The translations under genes and the position numbers were made by a program. The notes under the pieces were generated by a model. The model ran no database searches. It was not told the DNA's origin and saw nothing but the letters and a program-made list of their open reading frames with translations. Positions 26,293-37,378 of a stretch of 37,378 nt of DNA are shown piece after piece. Location: the IMG/VR virus record IMGVR_UViG_2667527994_000015; one strand, given 5' to 3'. Source of the stretch: a virus (taxonomy: Duplodnaviria; Heunggongvirae; Uroviricota; Caudoviricetes). The stretch's first letter is position 1, and the number at the start of each line of letters is the position of its first letter.

Positions 26293-27327
26293 CTATACCA
26301 AAGTTTTTTTAATCGCTCTCAATGTTGTCATTAAATTTTCGCCATACGGTGTTAAAGTCCAATAAGTACCTTTATCTTTAACACTTCTACTCTTTTCACT
26401 TTTAATAATTAACCCAAGCGCCCTAAACTGCACTTTTATTGTTTGGAAATCAGAATTAGATACTTTTAAAGATAATAAATTCATATCTTTAAAATCCTCA
26501 TAGATGATATCTTGAACTGCATTTCGCACACAGTTATTTAAAGCACTATATAGCTTATCATCCACTATCTCATCTATCATCAAAGGCGAAACATATGAAA
26601 AAATATCGTTCCAGCTTAATTTGACCTTATCGGTATATTCTTCACCATTATGTCTCCATTCTGTAGGCGACACACAGAATTCATAATCCAATTCAAAAAG
26701 CTCATCTCCTTGAGATAGTTTTTCTGCACCTGCAGGCGCTTCAGTCATACTTGATACAAGTTGACTTTCAAGCTCCTCAATTCGCCTTTTTAATTTCAAT
26801 ATTTCCTTTGCATCACCATCATTAGTTACTAAATTTCCTTTAACCCACCCAATTGCAGGACATTCTTTAATTAGTCTAATCAAACTTCTGCTAACCTGGC
26901 TACCTAACTCTGCAGGAGACTCCCAAAAACGACATAATTTTGTTTTAACTAGCTCTTCGAAAGCCTTTAGTTTTTCTACGCCTTCAGGGTTTGACTCACA
27001 ACGTTTTGCGGGGAGGTTACTTTTATCTTTATGAATAAAACCTATAACTGGCTTACCAGTTTCCAAAGCATAACGATACTCCATTTCTGTATAGCTTATT
27101 CCATCAGGACCAATTGAACCATAACGCCCTGCCAAGATAACAATATAATAATCACTATCGTCAATTATTTTTTTTATTAAACTCCACTGATCACTATTTG
27201 TTGCTGGAAATAATTCCATTCCTGCTGGCATACAATCAAGCTCCAGCAGTGCTTGCATTACTTCCTGTCTTTCTTCTTCAAGATCAGCAAAAGTTGAACT
27301 AACAAAAACCTGATATCTTTTATCCAT
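26293..27327 (-). CDS. Hypothetical protein with DUF4062-like N-terminal domain (accessory gene between portal and cos)
   Basis: 344-aa ORF; N-terminus VFVSSTFADLEEERQ and YYIVILAGRYG fit my recollection of the DUF4062 consensus; central coiled-coil; AT-rich. Confidence 0.7.
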   Translation of the reverse strand: MDKRYQVFVSSTFADLEEERQEVMQALLELDCMPAGMELFPATNSDQWSLIKKIIDDSDYYIVILAGRYGSIGPDGISYTEMEYRYALETGKPVIGFIHKDKSNLPAKRCESNPEGVEKLKAFEELVKTKLCRFWESPAELGSQVSRSLIRLIKECPAIGWVKGNLVTNDGDAKEILKLKRRIEELESQLVSSMTEAPAGAEKLSQGDELFELDYEFCVSPTEWRHNGEEYTDKVKLSWNDIFSYVSPLMIDEIVDDKLYSALNNCVRNAVQDIIYEDFKDMNLLSLKVSNSDFQTIKVQFRALGLIIKSEKSRSVKDKGTYWTLTPYGENLMTTLRAIKKTLV

Positions 27328-27403
27328 TTGATGATTTCCACTGCACGTATAGATCTTTCAGGCGATTATATATACTTTTCTGAAAACTGTCAGTGAGCGC
27401 GCG

Positions 27404-27422
27404 CTCGTATCCCCGCCACGCC
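27404..27422 (-). other. Putative cos cohesive-end sequence
   Basis: Minus strand reads GGCGTGGCGGGGATACGAG, close to the 19-nt cohesive ends of 186/P2 (GGCG[T/A]GGCGGGGAAAGCA...) as I remember them; sits between Q and the old/tin-equivalent slot. Confidence 0.4.
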
Positions 27423-27460
27423 TGCCCGCTTTATGTAGTGGTTTTCATGCAGGTGCATGA

Positions 27461-27491
27461 CATAAGCAAAAGCCCGCCAGTTCTGGCGGGC
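27461..27491 (-). terminator. Intrinsic terminator of the two-gene accessory operon
   Basis: Minus strand gcccgccag-aa-ctggcgggc followed by ttttgctt, just downstream of the 4-TM gene. Confidence 0.5.
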
Positions 27492-27636
27492 CTCAGCAAA
27501 AACGATCCTAAAACGATCATGCGGATTCATGCAGCATAGACATGCAAAGCTTGTTAGAACGGTGATTCCCATGTTAAAGGAGGCTTACTCTTGTTGAGGT
27601 TAAACATCCACAGTAACTCCTGCCAATACGAACACT

Positions 27637-28173
27637 TTATTCATCATAGTGTTCTAATTTCGCTTTTGCTAAACGTCCATGTAAGTGATTAACAAAATGT
27701 AAATTATTCAAAATCAGGCTCATAACGCATTTTAATTGCATCCAGCTAATAAAGTAAATGAAGAAAATACCAATGTATTTAAACAAGTCTTTATTAGCTT
27801 GATAAACAGGTAATGCATAAAACACTGCCTTAACCAAAAAGAAAATTAGAATCCCAGCCATAACACAAGCAGATGTGATTATTGTATAAACTAATTTCTC
27901 TATTCTTGGTGAGTCATGCTCATTTTTTATATAACTTACATCATCCTTAACAATACTATTCATTGCATTCGGATATAAAAAACCGACCCATAAACCGACA
28001 ATAGTGAATATAGATGCTGAAATATTTATAAGCGCACCTAAAATATCTTTTGCATCATTATAGGAAAAACTTTTGAACGAAAAATAGCTTATAACGCAGC
28101 ACAAAACAACAGCAACAAAATTAATCGCCTGCTGTTTTGCAACTGTTATTATCAAACCTTCCGTTTCTGTCAT
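27637..28173 (-). CDS. Small integral membrane protein with four predicted TM helices (accessory operon gene 2)
   Basis: 178-aa ORF with four hydrophobic stretches; GGAAGG SD; its ATG lies 1 nt after the upstream gene's TGA (TGAtATG). Confidence 0.7.
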   Translation of the reverse strand: MTETEGLIITVAKQQAINFVAVVLCCVISYFSFKSFSYNDAKDILGALINISASIFTIVGLWVGFLYPNAMNSIVKDDVSYIKNEHDSPRIEKLVYTIITSACVMAGILIFFLVKAVFYALPVYQANKDLFKYIGIFFIYFISWMQLKCVMSLILNNLHFVNHLHGRLAKAKLEHYDE

Positions 28174-28174
28174 A

Positions 28175-29374
28175 TCAACCTTCCGCTATCTTTTTTGTGG
28201 ATGCAGCTTCAGATTCTTTAATGGATGCTTCCTCAGCATATTTTACTTCACTAATCAAATCATCACGAATTTTGTTTATTTCATCCAGTAAAAAACGCGC
28301 TGAATAATGCTCAAACCCATCCGAATCTTGAAGAGGAAGTTTAGTCCTGGCTACATAGCTACTGAGCCAAACCGGATTAGCACGATCAGCCAGTAAAAAA
28401 CCCACATCCCATTCAGACTCTTCACCTCTCATTGAGAAGAGATTTCGAAGCTCATCCGATGATGGTGCACCGTCAATTTTAACTTCAATTTTACGAGGCT
28501 GCTCCAAAACAGGAGGTGCCCCAATAAGCTTATTACGCTTTTCTTCACCCACCAGAGATGCTAAAGCTACACTTGTTAGCTTCAACAATGGTTGCCTTGT
28601 GTCATTTTGGTTTATTACCGTTGTATCCTTTATCAATGTGTGTGTAATTTTATGCCTTAACCTTTCAAAGTTTTCCTCAGCGGCTTTAAGTTTTGTTTCT
28701 TCCAATACAAACTTGAAGATACAGTTTATCTCATTTTTGCCATCTTTATATTGAAACTTAGTATTGTAGACATCCACACAACGACCAGGGGTCTTAGCTG
28801 ATTCAAATGTACGCTTAGATTTCGTTCTTTTACCTAACTTACTATTATTATTTACATGCTGAATGAAGTATTGTGCGAAGAGATAAGTATCAGCGAAAGA
28901 ATGGGGGAATCTGATTGATGCTATTTTATTCAACTCAGGAATAATCCAGTAATAGCAGGGTTCACCCCAAATTATTTTATCCTCACCATGTTCTCTTCCC
29001 GCCCTAATGGTTCCTTTACTATCACCACTTACTTTAGAACCGACCTTAATACCATGTATTCCGTTACCGTTCCCCACTTCACGGTATAAAACAATTACTG
29101 CATCTTTAGTCTGGCTGTCCCTCACAAGGCCTCGACTGTAAACTCGTGTTCGCAGAGGTTGTTCTTCTTTATTCCATGGGAGAGTCTGCTCAAAATTTTT
29201 ATCCTTGAGCCACCCTTCTAAATCGTCCAAAACCCCCATAAGATCGCCGAATTTATAATCAAGCTCTTCGGGTTTATTCTTTAACCGATAAAACCCACAA
29301 GCAGTAATATCAAAGAAGGTGATTGAGCCGTTGTCCACTAAAACTCCTTTTTGCCAAAGCAACACACGATACAT
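28175..29374 (-). CDS. Hypothetical 399-aa protein (accessory operon gene 1)
   Basis: ATG-initiated ORF with no motif I can recognise; AT-rich; translationally coupled to the 4-TM gene; no clear SD. Confidence 0.65.
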   Translation of the reverse strand: MYRVLLWQKGVLVDNGSITFFDITACGFYRLKNKPEELDYKFGDLMGVLDDLEGWLKDKNFEQTLPWNKEEQPLRTRVYSRGLVRDSQTKDAVIVLYREVGNGNGIHGIKVGSKVSGDSKGTIRAGREHGEDKIIWGEPCYYWIIPELNKIASIRFPHSFADTYLFAQYFIQHVNNNSKLGKRTKSKRTFESAKTPGRCVDVYNTKFQYKDGKNEINCIFKFVLEETKLKAAEENFERLRHKITHTLIKDTTVINQNDTRQPLLKLTSVALASLVGEEKRNKLIGAPPVLEQPRKIEVKIDGAPSSDELRNLFSMRGEESEWDVGFLLADRANPVWLSSYVARTKLPLQDSDGFEHYSARFLLDEINKIRDDLISEVKYAEEASIKESEAASTKKIAEG

Positions 29375-29580: not shown

Positions 29581-29814
29581 CTAGTGTAACCAGCTGTCGT
29601 CCTCCCAGACCTTCTGCATAATTTTCATCACTTGTTTTCTTTCTTCGTCCAGTTGCAGTCCGGTCAGTTCCACACCGTTAGAGCTACCTTTGCGGATACG
29701 AATTACCGTTTTGGGATACAGGGGGCGCAGATTGCGGTAAAGCTCGGACTCAAGGGCGTCCAGTGTAGACTGGCTAAACTTCTGCTCTTTATCGATCATT
29801 ATTTCAATGCGCAT
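29581..29814 (-). CDS. dinI: DinI-like protein
   Basis: 77-aa product from the internal ATG (MRIEIMIDKEQ...) with GAGGTG SD; resembles E. coli DinI; downstream of a LexA box. Confidence 0.7.
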   Translation of the reverse strand: MRIEIMIDKEQKFSQSTLDALESELYRNLRPLYPKTVIRIRKGSSNGVELTGLQLDEERKQVMKIMQKVWEDDSWLH

Positions 29815-29824
29815 AAAAGTCACC

Positions 29825-30013
29825 TCAGCTGATGACATCCATTGAGCGGTTGTATTCATGGGTTCTGATTTTTGCCATGAGTTCATCTGTCAGTTCAGAA
29901 ACCCACTGCAGGGCCAGCCCCTTCTCTTCATCACTACACTCACTAGCCGCTACAAGCTTAAGAAAAAAATCAATGCGCTGGAGCTTCAAAGACTCCAAAA
30001 AATAGTCCTGCAT
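29825..30013 (-). CDS. Small SOS-controlled protein, possible Tum-like antirepressor
   Basis: 62-aa ORF with GGAGG SD 4 nt before the ATG and a perfect LexA box about 45 nt upstream; position equals the 186 tum locus; the homology itself is not established. Confidence 0.45.
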   Translation of the reverse strand: MQDYFLESLKLQRIDFFLKLVAASECSDEEKGLALQWVSELTDELMAKIRTHEYNRSMDVIS

Positions 30014-34471: not shown

Positions 34472-34981
34472 TCACAGCAAACCAAATGAAGCACCGAGGC
34501 CAGTCACGGTATCAACTGCACTCGCCATCGCAGGATTAGCCTGTAAACGGGCCTGCAATGAAACAGCCGCCAGCGCCATCAGTCGTGTTACAGAGTTAAT
34601 GCTGCTGATAGCATCACGACGACCGGCACAGGTTTTTACATCGCCAGACACCGCACCTGCAGCAACACGCCCGATCTCTGCGGTTGCACTCATGACGTAA
34701 TGTGGCAGTTTCTCTTTTGCCACCTCATTAATCGGTACACATGGCAGACAATGAATCTGTGCCAGAAAACCATCTACCAGCGTTGAATCTTCAGTCAGAT
34801 CGGTAAGCAGCCAGATTTCTGGTGCGGTTAATAAATGAGGCTGAGCTGGGTTCAGCTTGTTCCGCAGAATCTGCACATTCATGCCTGCACGTTCTGCCAG
34901 TTGCACCAGATTGTGGCGCAGTGCAAATGCACGACAGGCTTCATCAAAATGTGGATGTTTGGAAACTTGGTAATCAAACAT
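34472..34981 (-). CDS. cII: CII-like lysogeny-establishment transcriptional activator (phage 186 type)
   Basis: Translation from [20 protein letters not shown]... closely resembles 186 CII as I recall it; follows apl. Confidence 0.8.
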
Positions 34982-35013
34982 GGTCAATGCCTCTGATGTA
35001 TTTCAGAATCGAA

Positions 35014-35235
35014 CTAATTAAGGTTTAGATTGCATTCTGAAAGCGCATCAACGGTCATTGCTGCTATGTTGATCATCACTTTTTCGCGTTTTTTATCTTT
35101 GCGCAGACGGTGACGGATAAGGCGTCCATCAGCCAACATATCATTGATGGTATCGATGGATAGCCCTGTCAGCTCGCTATAGCGTTCAATAGTCACATGA
35201 GGCGTGGTAAGAGTGATTGAAATGTTAGGTCTCAT
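35014..35235 (-). CDS. apl: Apl/Cox-like excisionase and lytic-switch repressor
   Basis: 73-aa HTH protein, first gene of the lytic operon, divergent from cI. Confidence 0.7.
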
Positions 35236-35360
35236 GATGCAACATTCCTCGTTTAATGATGATTAATCAGGACGAATACGGATCGTTTGTATTTTGTGAA
35301 CACCATAAACATACGATCGCACAGTGAAATCGTCAAGATAAAAGTTCACTTGGAGTGACC
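35236..35360. promoter_or_regulatory. Lysis/lysogeny switch region between apl and cI
   Basis: Intergenic region with inverted repeat gtgaac (35296..35301) / gttcac (35344..35349); exact promoters and operators not resolved. Confidence 0.4.
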
Positions 35361-35930
35361 ATGAATTTGGAGAAAGGCGGACGAGGCGCCATAGAGCGCA
35401 TGGTAGAAGCTTATGGATTCAAGACTCGACAGGCGTTGTGCGATCATTTAGGAATCTCTAAAAGTACACTCGCCACACGCTACATGCGTGACTCATTCCC
35501 AGCAGAATGGGTAATCCAGTGCGCCCTTGAAACAGGCACCTCGCTTAATTGGCTCACAACCGGGCATGGTTCAAAGCAAACTTCAGGTAATACAAATACT
35601 ATGGAAGTTGCTAAATATGTATTATCTGATGGGGCCTTGTGTGAAGACGGCTTTTATATTTTCGATAGAGAATTTCTACCGTCGGCATTCAAGAATCTTT
35701 TTGTAATCACAGATAATAATTCTGAATTTATTTGTGATAAGGAATTTGATGATATACGTGATGGTAAATGGGTAATAAGTATTGATGGCGAAATAACGAT
35801 CCGTGACATTACTCGTTTACCCGGTGGAAGAATCTTCGTCGAGGGTGGAAACAGAGCCTTCGAATGTAAGATAGAAGACATTGAAATAATTGGTAAAATT
35901 ATAAGTTTAACAGTCAAGTATGTTAAATAG
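35361..35930 (+). CDS. cI: Immunity repressor CI (phage 186 type)
   Basis: ATG 35361 with GGAG SD; N-terminal HTH (MVEAYGF...LCDHLGISKSTLATRY); similar to 186 CI from memory. Confidence 0.8.
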   Translation: MNLEKGGRGAIERMVEAYGFKTRQALCDHLGISKSTLATRYMRDSFPAEWVIQCALETGTSLNWLTTGHGSKQTSGNTNTMEVAKYVLSDGALCEDGFYIFDREFLPSAFKNLFVITDNNSEFICDKEFDDIRDGKWVISIDGEITIRDITRLPGGRIFVEGGNRAFECKIEDIEIIGKIISLTVKYVK

Positions 35931-35945
35931 TACCGGGAGGAAATT

Positions 35946-36137
35946 ATGCTTGGTAAGGTATTTTTTGTGGTTTTGTCATGTTCTTTGTTATTAAACCCAC
36001 TAGCTACCTATGCTAGAAATTATCCCTGCTCAGGGAAAAAGGGAGGTGTTTCTCACTGTACCTCTGATGGCAAATTCGTTTGCAATGATGGAACTATTAG
36101 TAAATCCAAAAAAATCTGTACTAAAAACTCACGATAA
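35946..36137 (+). CDS. Small secreted Cys-rich protein (accessory gene in the cI-int operon)
   Basis: 63-aa ORF with strong GGGAGG SD 5 nt upstream; N-terminal signal peptide (probable cleavage after ATYA, or lipobox-like VLSC); four Cys in a ~40-aa mature part; AT-rich. Confidence 0.6.
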
Positions 36138-36325
36138 CTTTTGCTTTTATATCTGCGCCTAAAATAAAAATGAGCCACAGGTTAACCGCAAAAGTTACAT
36201 GATCACATAGCAAAAAGAATAGCCTACTTCATTATGGCTTCAGTGAGATGTATGGTCGCAGGATTTCATACATTGACACTGGTTATACATACAGTAAAAA
36301 TGCTCTCTATTGGAGGGCATTTTTT

Positions 36326-37378
36326 ATGGCTGTACGAAAACTCACCACAGGAAAATGGCTTTGCGAATGTTACCCCGCCGGACGTAGTGGGCGTCGTGTG
36401 CGTAAACAATTCGCCACCAAAGGCGAAGCACTGGCTTTTGAGCGTCACACGATGGAAGAAACCGAAGCAAAGCCCTGGCTAGGTGAATCAGTGGATCGTC
36501 GAACACTGAAAGACGTGGTTGAGCTATGGTTCAAACTACATGGTAAATCACTGACTGCTGGGCAGCATGTCTATGACAAATTGCTGCTGATGGTTGACGC
36601 TCTGGGCAATCCCCTTGCAACTGATCTCACCTCTAAAATGTTTGCCCACTATCGAGATAAACGCCTGACAGGTGAGATCTACTTCAGCGAGAAATGGAAG
36701 AAAGGAGCAAGCCCGGTCACCATTAACCTGGAGCAAAGCTATCTAAGTAGTGTTTTTAGCGAACTATCCCGCCTGGGCGAATGGTCGTATCCGAACCCAC
36801 TGGAGAACATGCGAAAATTCACCATCGCAGAAAAAGAGATGGCATGGCTTACCCATGAGCAGATTGTTGAATTACTGGCTGATTGCAAACGTCAGGACCC
36901 AATTCTGGCACTGGTAGTTAAGATATGCTTAAGCACAGGCGCACGCTGGCGAGAAGCCGTAAATCTTACTCGTTCACAGGTGACCAAATACCGAATTACC
37001 TTTGTAAGAACGAAGGGGAAGAAAAACAGAAGCATCCCTATCAGTAAAGAGCTTTACGAAGAGATCATGGCGCTTGATGGGTTCAATTTCTTCACAGACT
37101 GCTATTTTCAATTTTTATCCGTGATGGAAAAAACGTCTATCGTGCTCCCTCGCGGTCAACTCACACACGTTCTGCGCCATACGTTTGCGGCGCACTTCAT
37201 GATGTCGGGTGGAAACATTCTGGCCTTACAAAAAATTCTCGGACACCACGATATAAAAATGACTATGCGTTACGCACATCTGGCACCGGATCATCTGGAA
37301 ACGGCGCTCCGTTTCAATCCTCTGGCAACGCTGCCAAGTGGCGACAAAGTGGCGGCAGCGGTTGGCATTACCCCGTAA
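36326..37378 (+). CDS. int: Tyrosine integrase (186/P2 family)
   Basis: Start MAVRKLTTGKWLCECYPAGRSGRRVRKQFATKGEALAFE with GGAGGG SD; C-terminal HVLRHTFA...MTMRYAHL motifs; resembles 186 Int; last codons overlap attL core. Confidence 0.9.
   Translation: MAVRKLTTGKWLCECYPAGRSGRRVRKQFATKGEALAFERHTMEETEAKPWLGESVDRRTLKDVVELWFKLHGKSLTAGQHVYDKLLLMVDALGNPLATDLTSKMFAHYRDKRLTGEIYFSEKWKKGASPVTINLEQSYLSSVFSELSRLGEWSYPNPLENMRKFTIAEKEMAWLTHEQIVELLADCKRQDPILALVVKICLSTGARWREAVNLTRSQVTKYRITFVRTKGKKNRSIPISKELYEEIMALDGFNFFTDCYFQFLSVMEKTSIVLPRGQLTHVLRHTFAAHFMMSGGNILALQKILGHHDIKMTMRYAHLAPDHLETALRFNPLATLPSGDKVAAAVGITP
37339..37360. repeat. attL core (tggcgacaaaGtggcggcagcg)
   Basis: Direct repeat of 2834..2855 with one mismatch, inside the 3' end of int. 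Confidence 0.6.

What the first reader, a model, noticed from the sequence alone, without database searches (positions are those of the whole stretch)
35946..36137. Small secreted Cys-rich protein encoded between cI and int
A 63-aa ORF with a strong SD sits in the lysogenic operon, so it would be made in the lysogen. It has an N-terminal signal peptide and a ~40-aa mature part with four cysteines and many lysines, and is AT-rich relative to cI and int. Lysogen-expressed secreted or lipid-anchored peptides at this position are typical of superinfection-exclusion or lysogenic-conversion factors.
Basis: partly seen in the sequence, partly recalled or inferred. Interest (0 to 1): 0.5.

Follow-up and report, generated by a model that had tools for sequence, protein, structure and literature searches.

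The report
Prophage copy of periplasmic mini-protein YdcA
The 63-codon ORF is a real, selected gene for an exported 40-residue cysteine-rich protein of the named but uncharacterised YdcA family, carried as swappable cargo between the repressor and integrase genes of a common E. coli prophage; what it does there has never been tested.

Summary
ORF 35946-36137 (+) is a genuine gene 15 nt after cI, with a GGGAGG ribosome-binding site. Among diverged alleles, 15 of 18 variable sites are third-codon positions and pN/pS is about 0.05.

It is not an orphan. It passes NCBIfam's YdcA model (NF007463, 114.6 bits against a cutoff of 93), matches precomputed Pfam PF27300 'YdcA', and PGAP already names it.

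Homologues show variable signal peptides ending in an invariant Ala, then a near-invariant domain [12 protein letters not shown]..[17 protein letters not shown]. The predicted product is a 40-aa, +7, four-Cys periplasmic protein. It is not a lipoprotein.

Phage 186 and SopEphi have no gap between cI and int. Related prophages fill this slot with YdcA (598 of 5,426 complete E. coli genomes, including REL606 and BL21), PD-Lambda-1, a KAP NTPase or other genes.

Two leads on function:
- The nearest solved structure is a lobe of Dis2, in the Legionella Dot/Icm outer-membrane cap.
- The domain is fused to three unrelated secreted nuclease families.

My best guess is a lysogen-made, polyanion/DNA-binding envelope factor that protects against incoming DNA. 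This is inference only. The gene is a new member of a known kind, of moderate interest.

The parts
35361..35930 (+). cI repressor gene (186-type). It is the upstream gene of the same transcription unit.
   Evidence: Pfam Phage_CI_repr 2.8e-33 and Phage_CI_C 2.7e-27. PGAP names it 'phage repressor protein CI' in identical prophages.
35935..35940 (+). Shine-Dalgarno GGGAGG, 5 nt upstream of the ATG of the ORF.
   Evidence: Read directly from the sequence. It is conserved in all seven alleles compared.
35946..36137 (+). Phage-borne ydcA-family gene (63 codons plus stop).
   Evidence: NCBIfam NF007463 at 114.6 bits against a cutoff of 93. phrog_6000 at 3e-34. Precomputed Pfam PF27300 'YdcA'. PGAP names it 'YdcA family protein' WP_001513672.1. 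pN/pS is about 0.05.
35946..36014 (+). Predicted Sec signal peptide, residues 1-23 ([23 protein letters not shown]). Signal peptidase I is predicted to cleave after A23.
   Evidence: Hydrophobic core at residues 5-19. Homologues have variable sequences here ending in an invariant Ala. No valid lipobox is present. SignalP was not available.
36015..36134 (+). Mature 40-aa domain [40 protein letters not shown], with four Cys (two predicted disulfides) and net charge +7.
   Evidence: Invariant or near-invariant columns are [20 protein letters not shown]. The AF2 model has pLDDT 87-90 over residues 31-50. The best PDB matches are the disulfide-pinned lobes of Dis2.
36138..36265 (+). Non-coding 3' tail specific to the ydcA cargo module.
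   Evidence: Megablast matches to prophages carrying other cargo begin only at about 36266-36268. The weak hairpin at 36137-36195 is not significant (z = -2.3). No Rfam family reaches its gathering score.
36266..36325 (+). int leader shared by all cargo types. It has a promoter-like TTGACA-17-AAAAAT at 36273-36301 and a 13-bp hairpin plus U-run at 36296-36325 that contains the int Shine-Dalgarno. It is the likely 3' end of the cI-ydcA transcript.
   Evidence: Promoter scan gives 10 of 12 matches. The hairpin folds at -17.5 kcal/mol with z = -6.5. The stem covaries among prophages with different cargo, for example GCCCUC/GAGGGC against GUCCUC/GAGGAC. Its function is inferred.
36326..37378 (+). 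Tyrosine integrase gene. The prophage is inserted next to rcdA.
   Evidence: Pfam Int_N 3e-32 and Phage_integrase 7e-22. Identical prophages have rcdA immediately downstream.

Best explanation
What it is (near-certain). The ORF is a phage-borne member of the YdcA family, carried as cargo in the variable slot between cI and int of a 186-like prophage that integrates next to rcdA.

How it is made (inferred from anatomy).
1. It has no promoter of its own and sits 15 nt behind cI. It is therefore transcribed with cI from the lysogenic promoter and translated from its own strong ribosome-binding site.
2. The transcript probably ends at the hairpin plus U-run just before int.
3. The pre-protein is exported by Sec and cut after Ala23. 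By homology with Dis2, the 40-residue product is oxidised to a two-disulfide mini-domain in the periplasm.

What it does (my best guess, unproven). The domain is very basic, with conserved KKGG and SxSKK motifs. I propose it is a compact binding module for a polyanionic ligand in the envelope, most likely nucleic acid. Made constitutively in the lysogen, it would interfere with foreign DNA or phage entering through the envelope. That would make it an exclusion- or protection-type accessory gene, matching the defence genes that occupy the same slot in sister prophages.
For: Identity:
- NF007463 above the curated cutoff, PF27300 'YdcA' and the PGAP name.
- Real and selected: pN/pS about 0.05, 15 of 18 variable sites at third-codon positions.
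- Intact in about 590 of the 598 E. coli genomes that carry it, and 493 IMG/VR loci encode a relative.

Export:
- Variable hydrophobic N-termini, an invariant Ala at -1, and a conserved mature domain.

Cargo status:
- The slot is empty in 186 and SopEphi.
- Elsewhere it holds YdcA, PD-Lambda-1 (3e-120), a KAP NTPase, YdcA plus KAP, or other genes.
- Divergent YdcA alleles (61-67% identity to the window protein by BLASTP; one Enterobacter allele 81% over 76% of its length) also sit directly after cI in Escherichia, Klebsiella and Enterobacter prophages.
- An unannotated homologue overlaps the cI stop in Haemophilus phages HP2 and S2.

Precedent for the slot:
- K139 glo.
- A cI-int defence hotspot in K139-like Vibrio phages (PMC9122126).

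Link to nucleic acid or the envelope:
- Among 149 family representatives, 5 of the 7 recognisable fusions are to secreted nucleases of three unrelated folds: Endonuclease_NS x3, SNase x1, PLD-like x1. The SxSKK motif is retained in these fusions.
- The mature peptide has charge +7.
- The best solved relative is a lobe of Dis2, an outer-membrane-proximal subunit of a DNA/protein translocation machine.
Against: - There is no experimental evidence for any function.
- PADLOC has no model that matches.
- 'Guilt by slot' is weak. Hotspots also carry non-defence cargo.
- Nuclease fusions are only about 3% of family representatives. They are equally compatible with the domain being an envelope-anchoring or targeting module rather than a DNA binder.
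- Dis2 itself is not basic in the equivalent segment, and it binds proteins (DotC, DotD, DotK).
- The only phenotype for chromosomal ydcA is sensitivity of a deletion mutant to 3-hydroxypropionate, plus reported acid induction (PMC7642389). That points to stress tolerance, not exclusion.
- In Moraxella and Acinetobacter phages the homologue lies among tail genes, not in a lysogeny operon.
- Transcription with cI, termination before int, signal-peptide cleavage and disulfide formation are all inferred, not shown.
Confidence: 0.4

Rival explanations
1. It is an envelope-stress or fitness factor (lysogenic conversion). On this reading it is a second, constitutively expressed copy of the host's YdcA function. 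That function would help the lysogen tolerate acid or organic-acid or other envelope stress, and would have nothing to do with phages.
For: It belongs to the same family as chromosomal YdcA. The mature domains are about 79% identical over residues 27-59. Deleting ydcA makes E. coli W sensitive to 300 mM 3-hydroxypropionate, and ydcA is reported to be acid-induced (PMC7642389). Strong purifying selection fits any host-beneficial role.
Against: The 3-HP phenotype is a single report with no mechanism, and it disappears in a yieP mutant. Most E. coli already carry chromosomal ydcA, so the benefit of a second copy is unclear. This reading does not explain the recurrent placement directly behind cI in several phage lineages, or the nuclease fusions.
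Confidence: 0.2
2. It is a Dis2-like protein-binding accessory of an outer-membrane machine. The mini-protein would dock onto an outer-membrane complex (a secretin, pilus, T4SS, Bam or Lpt component, or a phage receptor) and modulate it, for example by masking a receptor or a conjugation or entry portal.
For: Dis2 (Lpg0823) is the top PDB hit by profile (E = 4e-5 with the signal peptide included). It is also the top Foldseek hit (27 residues, 1.7 A, 44% identity). A Dis2-like protein carries a precomputed PF27300 hit. Dis2 lies next to the outer membrane and contacts DotK, DotC and DotD.
Confidence: 0.13
3. It is a secreted cationic antimicrobial, defensin-like peptide that the lysogen uses against competitors.
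For: It is small, carries charge +7, is stabilised by four Cys and is exported.
Against: A Sec signal only reaches the periplasm in E. coli. There is no dedicated exporter, immunity gene or lysis gene next to it. The chromosomal paralogue is a housekeeping-type gene. The tandem-repeat and nuclease-fusion architectures are not bacteriocin-like.
Confidence: 0.05
4. It is an outer-membrane lipoprotein of the Cor/Llp type that blocks a phage receptor.
For: A Cys at residue 12 lies within the hydrophobic N-terminus. Cor and Llp are lysogen-expressed exclusion lipoproteins (general knowledge).
Against: The VLSC context fails the lipobox rules. The Cys lies before position 15, and Lys4 falls inside the stretch that should be uncharged. 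Many homologues have no Cys in the signal peptide at all, while the AxA site is invariant. There is no sequence similarity to known lipoprotein families.
Confidence: 0.03

Closest known systems
E. coli chromosomal YdcA (b1419; NCBIfam PRK10040 models; Pfam PF27300 'YdcA')
   Same: It is the same family and architecture: a signal peptide followed by PCSGxKGGxSHC..[17 protein letters not shown] with four Cys. The window protein passes the curated cutoff of the sister equivalog NF007463, and PGAP names it 'YdcA family protein'.
   Different: It is a distinct paralogue. It scores 68.5 bits on the model that I take, from its 57-residue length, to be the K-12-type YdcA (NF007462, cutoff 118). It has a different signal peptide and a C-terminal KNSR tail. 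It is carried on a prophage behind cI rather than at the cybB-hokB chromosomal locus (that location is recalled from memory, not checked here). Neither copy has a known biochemical function.
Dis2 (Lpg0823) of the Legionella pneumophila Dot/Icm T4SS outer-membrane cap (PDB 7MUC, 7MUD)
   Same: Its lobes share the motif CxxKxGG[IV]xxC-x3-4-Gx[LFV]VCN[DN]Gxx S. Dis2 is the best PDB hit by both sequence profile and Foldseek. It is an exported, disulfide-pinned small domain (PMC8486379).
   Different: Dis2 has two lobes and five disulfides, lacks the basic SKSKK tail, and is a stoichiometric subunit of a T4SS. The window protein has one lobe and, as far as I looked, no T4SS nearby. Statistical support without the signal peptide is marginal.
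Glo of Vibrio phage K139
   Same: It occupies the same genomic niche: a gene between cI and int in the lysogenic operon of a P2-related phage. The phage record annotates it as a periplasmic protein involved in phage exclusion.
   Different: There is no sequence similarity (BLASTP E = 0.18). Glo is 137 aa and is not Cys-rich.
Prophage defence hotspots (P2/P4 hotspots; cI-int hotspot of K139-like phages; PD-Lambda-1)
   Same: The cI-int slot of this prophage clade is variable. In sister prophages it holds PD-Lambda-1 or KAP NTPases. The literature describes such hotspots (PMC9122126; PMC13586616).
   Different: YdcA is not a recognised defence protein (no PADLOC hit). It can co-occur with a KAP NTPase rather than replace it.

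Membership tests
YdcA family (NCBIfam NF007463 / Pfam PF27300) | Score above the curated whole-protein cutoff of the family model | tested here: met
   NF007463 scores 114.6 bits against a cutoff of 93, covering model positions 1-58 of 58. A PF27300 hit is precomputed for the identical protein P0001, and that family is named 'YdcA'.
YdcA family (NCBIfam NF007463 / Pfam PF27300) | N-terminal signal peptide followed by the four-Cys motif PCSGxKGGxSHC..FxCxDGxxSxSKxxC | tested here: met
   Alignments A1 and A2 have C28, C38, C46, K32, G33, G34, F44, D48, G49, S52, S54 and K55 invariant, and C58 at 90% or more.
Dis2 (Lpg0823) T4SS outer-membrane cap subunit | Significant sequence or structure similarity to the Dis2 lobe | tested here: inconclusive
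   [not shown]
Dis2 (Lpg0823) T4SS outer-membrane cap subunit | Two tandem lobes pinned by five disulfides, encoded in a genome with a Dot/Icm T4SS | tested here: not met
   The window protein has a single lobe with four Cys. The window ORFs I checked are P2/186-type phage genes and host genes, with nothing resembling a T4SS, although I did not classify every ORF.
Moron (phage accessory insert, in the sense used for HK97) | Present between two genes that are adjacent in related phages | tested here: met
   cI and int abut in 186 and SopEphi. The window has a 395-bp insert at that point.
Moron (phage accessory insert, in the sense used for HK97) | Own promoter and terminator flanking the insert | tested here: not met
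   No promoter-like site lies on the + strand between 35355 and 35945. The only strong terminator-like hairpin (36296-36325) belongs to the shared int leader.
Superinfection-exclusion proteins of the lysogenic operon (K139 Glo type) | Encoded between cI and int and exported to the periplasm | tested here: met
   Position is shown. Export is inferred from the conserved signal peptide.
Superinfection-exclusion proteins of the lysogenic operon (K139 Glo type) | Homology to Glo | tested here: not met
   BLASTP E = 0.18.
Superinfection-exclusion proteins of the lysogenic operon (K139 Glo type) | Blocks infection by the same or other phages | not testable with these tools
   This needs plaque, adsorption and injection assays.
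Cor/Llp-type exclusion lipoproteins | Lipobox with the Cys at a permissible position | tested here: not met
   Cys12 sits in the context V-L-S-C, with Lys4 inside the six residues that should be uncharged and the Cys before position 15. It is not conserved in homologues. LipoP was not available.
Catalogued anti-phage defence systems (PADLOC-DB 2.0) | Match to a defence-protein model | tested here: not met
   No family matched at E <= 10.

The most novel reading that the evidence does not exclude
The YdcA domain is a previously unrecognised extracytoplasmic nucleic-acid-binding mini-fold. It would be the single-lobe relative of the T4SS subunit Dis2. Temperate phages of several lineages (186-like phages of E. 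coli, Klebsiella and Enterobacter; Haemophilus HP2 and S2) would place it directly behind their repressor gene. The lysogen would then keep a periplasmic 'DNA trap' that blocks entry of superinfecting phage, conjugative or transforming DNA. That would be a new class of one-gene exclusion factor of about 4 kDa, already present in laboratory strains BL21 and REL606.
Probability: 0.15. Interest if true: 0.7.

Novelty: new member of a known kind. Interest (0 to 1): 0.4.

Why it matters
The gene is not rare. It is in about 11% of complete E. coli genomes, including the workhorse B strains REL606 and BL21, yet neither it nor its family has a known function.

Three findings make it directly testable with existing strains:
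- It sits in a prophage slot that otherwise carries anti-phage genes.
- It lies directly behind cI in several phage lineages.
- Its domain is fused to three kinds of secreted nucleases and resembles a lobe of a T4SS outer-membrane subunit that structural biologists could not relate to anything.

If it proves to be an exclusion factor, or a periplasmic DNA binder, that would assign a function to the YdcA/PF27300 family and give context to Dis2. If it does nothing measurable, it remains an ordinary small cargo gene.

Tried and rejected
- The Pfam-A copy in the tool gave no significant hit for the ORF. Only GULLO2-like_3rd appeared, at E = 0.076, because PF27300 is newer than that copy. The family was recovered through NCBIfam and the precomputed Pfam labels.
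- PADLOC gave no hit.
- The mature-only profile against the PDB kept Dis2 on top, but only at E = 0.098. I therefore do not claim proven homology.
- Rfam on 35200-36500 gave only sub-threshold chance hits: Phe_leader at 23.5 bits against 55, and mir-153.
- The hairpin just after the stop codon (36137-36195) is not significant (z = -2.3) and has no U-tract, so I rejected it as a terminator.
- I looked for a conserved partner gene downstream of ydcA homologues on other elements. The candidates were HP2 orf1(S) with a tRNA_anti-like OB fold, Acinetobacter plasmid ORFs and a Moraxella phage ORF. The only link was one weak pairwise similarity, pGFJ6 against Mcat15 at E = 2.5e-4. There is no general two-gene module.
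- The IMG/VR scan returned 80 near-identical loci and added abundance but no diversity.
- Literature searches for the protein accessions, 'YdcA family' and PF27300 found no functional study. The plasmid and gonococcal-island genes called 'ydcA' are unrelated names.
- I rejected the lipoprotein reading and the spurious-ORF reading, for the reasons given under the membership tests and the observation check.

Full report
**1. What is at the coordinates**

The window ends with the lysis-lysogeny switch of a 186-like (Peduoviridae) prophage. In order, the genes are:
- cII (34472-34987, minus strand)
- an apl/cox-like gene (35014-35235, minus strand)
- cI (35361-35930, plus strand)
- the 63-codon ORF (35946-36137, plus strand)
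- a 188-nt spacer
- int (36326-37378, plus strand)

In identical prophages of complete E. coli genomes, the gene after int is the host gene rcdA. The left end of the window holds the host genes ybjM and ybjL.

The ORF starts 15 nt after the cI stop. A GGGAGG at 35935-35940 lies 5 nt before its ATG. The consensus scan finds no promoter-like site on the + strand between cI and the ORF.

**2. It is a real gene under selection**

I fetched six diverged alleles from E. coli genomes (REL606, ATCC 8739, a UPEC strain and others) and compared them codon by codon.
- All seven copies are intact and 63 codons long.
- 15 of 18 variable sites are third-codon positions (P = 2e-5).
- Window versus REL606 gives 11 synonymous and 2 non-synonymous differences (pS 0.257, pN 0.013).
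- Across all seven alleles the amino-acid changes are N17S and A20T in the signal peptide, R24K at the first residue after the predicted cleavage site, and N61K in the C-terminal tail. The conserved core from P27 to C58 is unchanged.

The 335-bp module is found in 598 of 5,426 complete E. coli genomes, and 590 of these cover at least 80% of it. One copy is truncated by an IS5-family element. IMG/VR holds 493 loci that encode a relative.

**3. It belongs to a named family**
- The protein passes the curated cutoff of NCBIfam NF007463 (PRK10040.1-2; 114.6 bits against 93) and matches phrog_6000.
- The identical database protein carries a precomputed hit to Pfam PF27300. That family is called 'YdcA'.
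- PGAP already labels the gene 'YdcA family protein', WP_001513672.1.
- Chromosomal YdcA is a 57-aa paralogue with the same architecture.
- An exhaustive profile search finds 474 clusters at 50% identity.

No functional study of the family turned up. The only phenotype is that an E. coli W ydcA deletion is sensitive to 3-hydroxypropionate. The same paper cites acid induction of ydcA (PMC7642389).

**4. Signal peptide and mature product**

In 26 homologues the first roughly 20 residues are hydrophobic and differ freely. They end in an invariant Ala and are followed by the near-invariant domain [14 protein letters not shown](T)[19 protein letters not shown]. This is the expected signature of a signal peptide cleaved by signal peptidase I.

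Cleavage after A23 gives a 40-aa, 4.3-kDa peptide with pI 9.7, net charge about +7 and four Cys.

Cys12 in the signal peptide does not form a valid lipobox and is not conserved, so the lipoprotein option is rejected. Dedicated predictors were not available.

**5. The cI-int interval is a cargo slot**

In phage 186 and in SopEphi, cI and int abut. In prophages of the same clade the slot holds different genes:
- YdcA alone, as in this window
- PD-Lambda-1 (PADLOC 3e-120)
- a KAP P-loop NTPase
- a second cI-like gene followed by a KAP NTPase
- a 314-aa hypothetical protein
- a divergent YdcA followed by a KAP NTPase

In Enterobacter prophages YdcA sits between cI and int with only a 3-nt gap before int. 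Haemophilus phages HP2 and S2 carry an intact but unannotated 60-aa homologue whose ATG overlaps the cI stop.

Vibrio phage K139 has cI-orf2-glo-int, and its record annotates Glo as a periplasmic protein involved in phage exclusion. Glo is not homologous to the window protein. Rousset et al. described a defence hotspot between cI and int in K139-like phages (PMC9122126). A 2026 survey lists a minor hotspot between integrase and primase in P2-like phages (PMC13586616).

The right boundary of the cargo lies at about 36266, where matches to prophages with other cargo begin. The ydcA module also recombines independently of immunity type. Window versus strain p10A gives pS 0.023 in the ORF but 0.384 in cI.

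**6. Likely transcript**

The shared int leader (36266-36325) contains TTGACA-17-AAAAAT and a 13-bp hairpin followed by a U-run directly before the int ATG (-17.5 kcal/mol, z = -6.5). The 3' arm of the hairpin is the int Shine-Dalgarno. The stem covaries among prophages with different cargo.

I infer that transcripts from the lysogenic promoter cover cI and ydcA and end, or are silenced for int, at this hairpin. This was not tested.

**7. Clues to function**

(a) Solved-structure relative. The family profile's best match among all PDB sequences is Dis2 (Lpg0823) of the Legionella Dot/Icm T4SS outer-membrane cap.
- With the signal peptide the E-value is 4e-5. With the mature domain alone Dis2 is still first, but only at 0.098.
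- The AF2 model (mean pLDDT 78.7, and 87-90 across the core) also has Dis2 chains as its two best Foldseek hits (27 residues, 1.7 A, 44% identity; E about 0.5).
- A Dis2-like protein carries a precomputed PF27300 hit.

(b) Domain fusions. Of 149 family representatives, only seven have another Pfam domain at E <= 1e-4. Five of those are secreted nucleases from three unrelated folds: Endonuclease_NS x3, SNase x1 and PLD-like x1. The others are VasL and DUF4124. The basic SxSKK motif is retained in the nuclease fusions. Tandem two- and three-copy proteins also exist.

(c) Distribution. The family is frequent on mobile elements. These include prophages of E. coli, Klebsiella, Enterobacter, Haemophilus, Moraxella, Acinetobacter and Pseudomonas, and plasmids of Acinetobacter and Rhizobium.

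**8. Interpretation**

Shown:
- It is a real, conserved gene and a YdcA-family member.
- It is cargo in a variable cI-int slot.
- It is very common in E. coli.

Inferred with good support:
- It is exported by Sec and cleaved at A23.
- It carries two disulfides.
- It is co-transcribed with cI in the lysogen.

Hypothesis: it is a basic envelope-located binding module, probably for nucleic acid or another polyanion, that protects the lysogen against incoming DNA or phage. I give the whole chain about 0.4.

The main rivals are a stress-tolerance role like that hinted at for chromosomal ydcA (0.2) and a Dis2-like protein-docking role on an outer-membrane machine (0.13).

The lipid-anchor alternative does not hold.

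**9. Verdict**

This is a new, phage-borne member of a known but uncharacterised family, sitting in a known type of prophage cargo slot. It is of moderate interest because it is widespread, sits in laboratory strains and is easy to test. The Dis2 and nuclease-fusion links give concrete hypotheses.

Noticed in passing
window 36266-36325: A conserved int leader is shared by prophages with different cI-int cargo. It has a TTGACA-17-AAAAAT promoter-like site with an ACTG..CAGT inverted repeat. It also has a 13-bp hairpin plus U-run (-17.5 kcal/mol, z = -6.5) whose 3' arm is the int Shine-Dalgarno. The stem covaries between prophages. This looks like a terminator or attenuator that uncouples int from the cI transcript, unlike phage 186, where cI and int overlap.
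   Followed up: partly
[not shown]
   Followed up: partly
L014 1291-2967; L020 1804-3480; L017 2153-3484; L018 2527-3471; L023 and L029 4198-5529: In sister prophages at the same rcdA site, the cI-int slot holds PD-Lambda-1 (DUF4041 plus T5orf172), KAP-family P-loop NTPases (alone or after a divergent YdcA), or a 314-aa hypothetical protein. This is a defence-type hotspot in E. coli 186-like prophages.
   Followed up: partly
window 26296-29374 (- strand): The known P2 hotspot between portal and replication genes carries a two-gene candidate defence system in this prophage. It matches PADLOC PDC-M18A (28178-29374, 6e-31) and PDC-M18B (27640-28173, 3e-18). A DUF4062 protein lies alongside (26296-27327), and a DinI-like gene lies at 29584-29886.
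   Followed up: partly
P0123, P0172, P0188, P0217, P0204 (family representatives): The YdcA domain occurs at the N-terminus of secreted nucleases of three unrelated folds: SNase, Endonuclease_NS and PLD-like. Proteins with two or three tandem YdcA domains also exist (P0081-P0085).
   Followed up: yes
P0056, P0058, P0060, P0062, P0111, P0129, P0134, P0143, P0228: Many longer YdcA proteins, including the one I traced to a betaproteobacterium (P0056, Herbaspirillum), carry a second conserved Cys-rich C-terminal module. Its motif is CxCx5-6CxGPRGGxYCx5Gx(K/R)SY. It has no significant Pfam match, only PBCV_basic_adap at E = 0.006.
   Followed up: no
window 35361-36137 compared with L007 and L008: The region is mosaic. 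The ydcA ORF is almost identical to that of strains p10A and 1002W03 (pS 0.023), while the adjacent cI differs strongly (pS 0.38, pN 0.08) and the apl-side gene has a different length. The cargo module has therefore been exchanged between immunity types. The low-GC tract (0.34) begins inside the C-terminal half of cI.
   Followed up: partly
L005 2516-3798 (E. coli O19:H7 730V1): One copy of the gene is truncated at codon 51 by an IS5-like ISKpn26 insertion. This was the only clearly disrupted copy seen.
   Followed up: no
L031 640-1609; L032 642-1574; L011 3938-4764: On small Acinetobacter plasmids and in Moraxella phages, the YdcA homologue is followed by a membrane-anchored protein of about 210-245 aa. 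Two of these (pGFJ6 and Mcat15) are weakly similar (E = 2.5e-4), so there may be a lineage-specific partner.
   Followed up: partly
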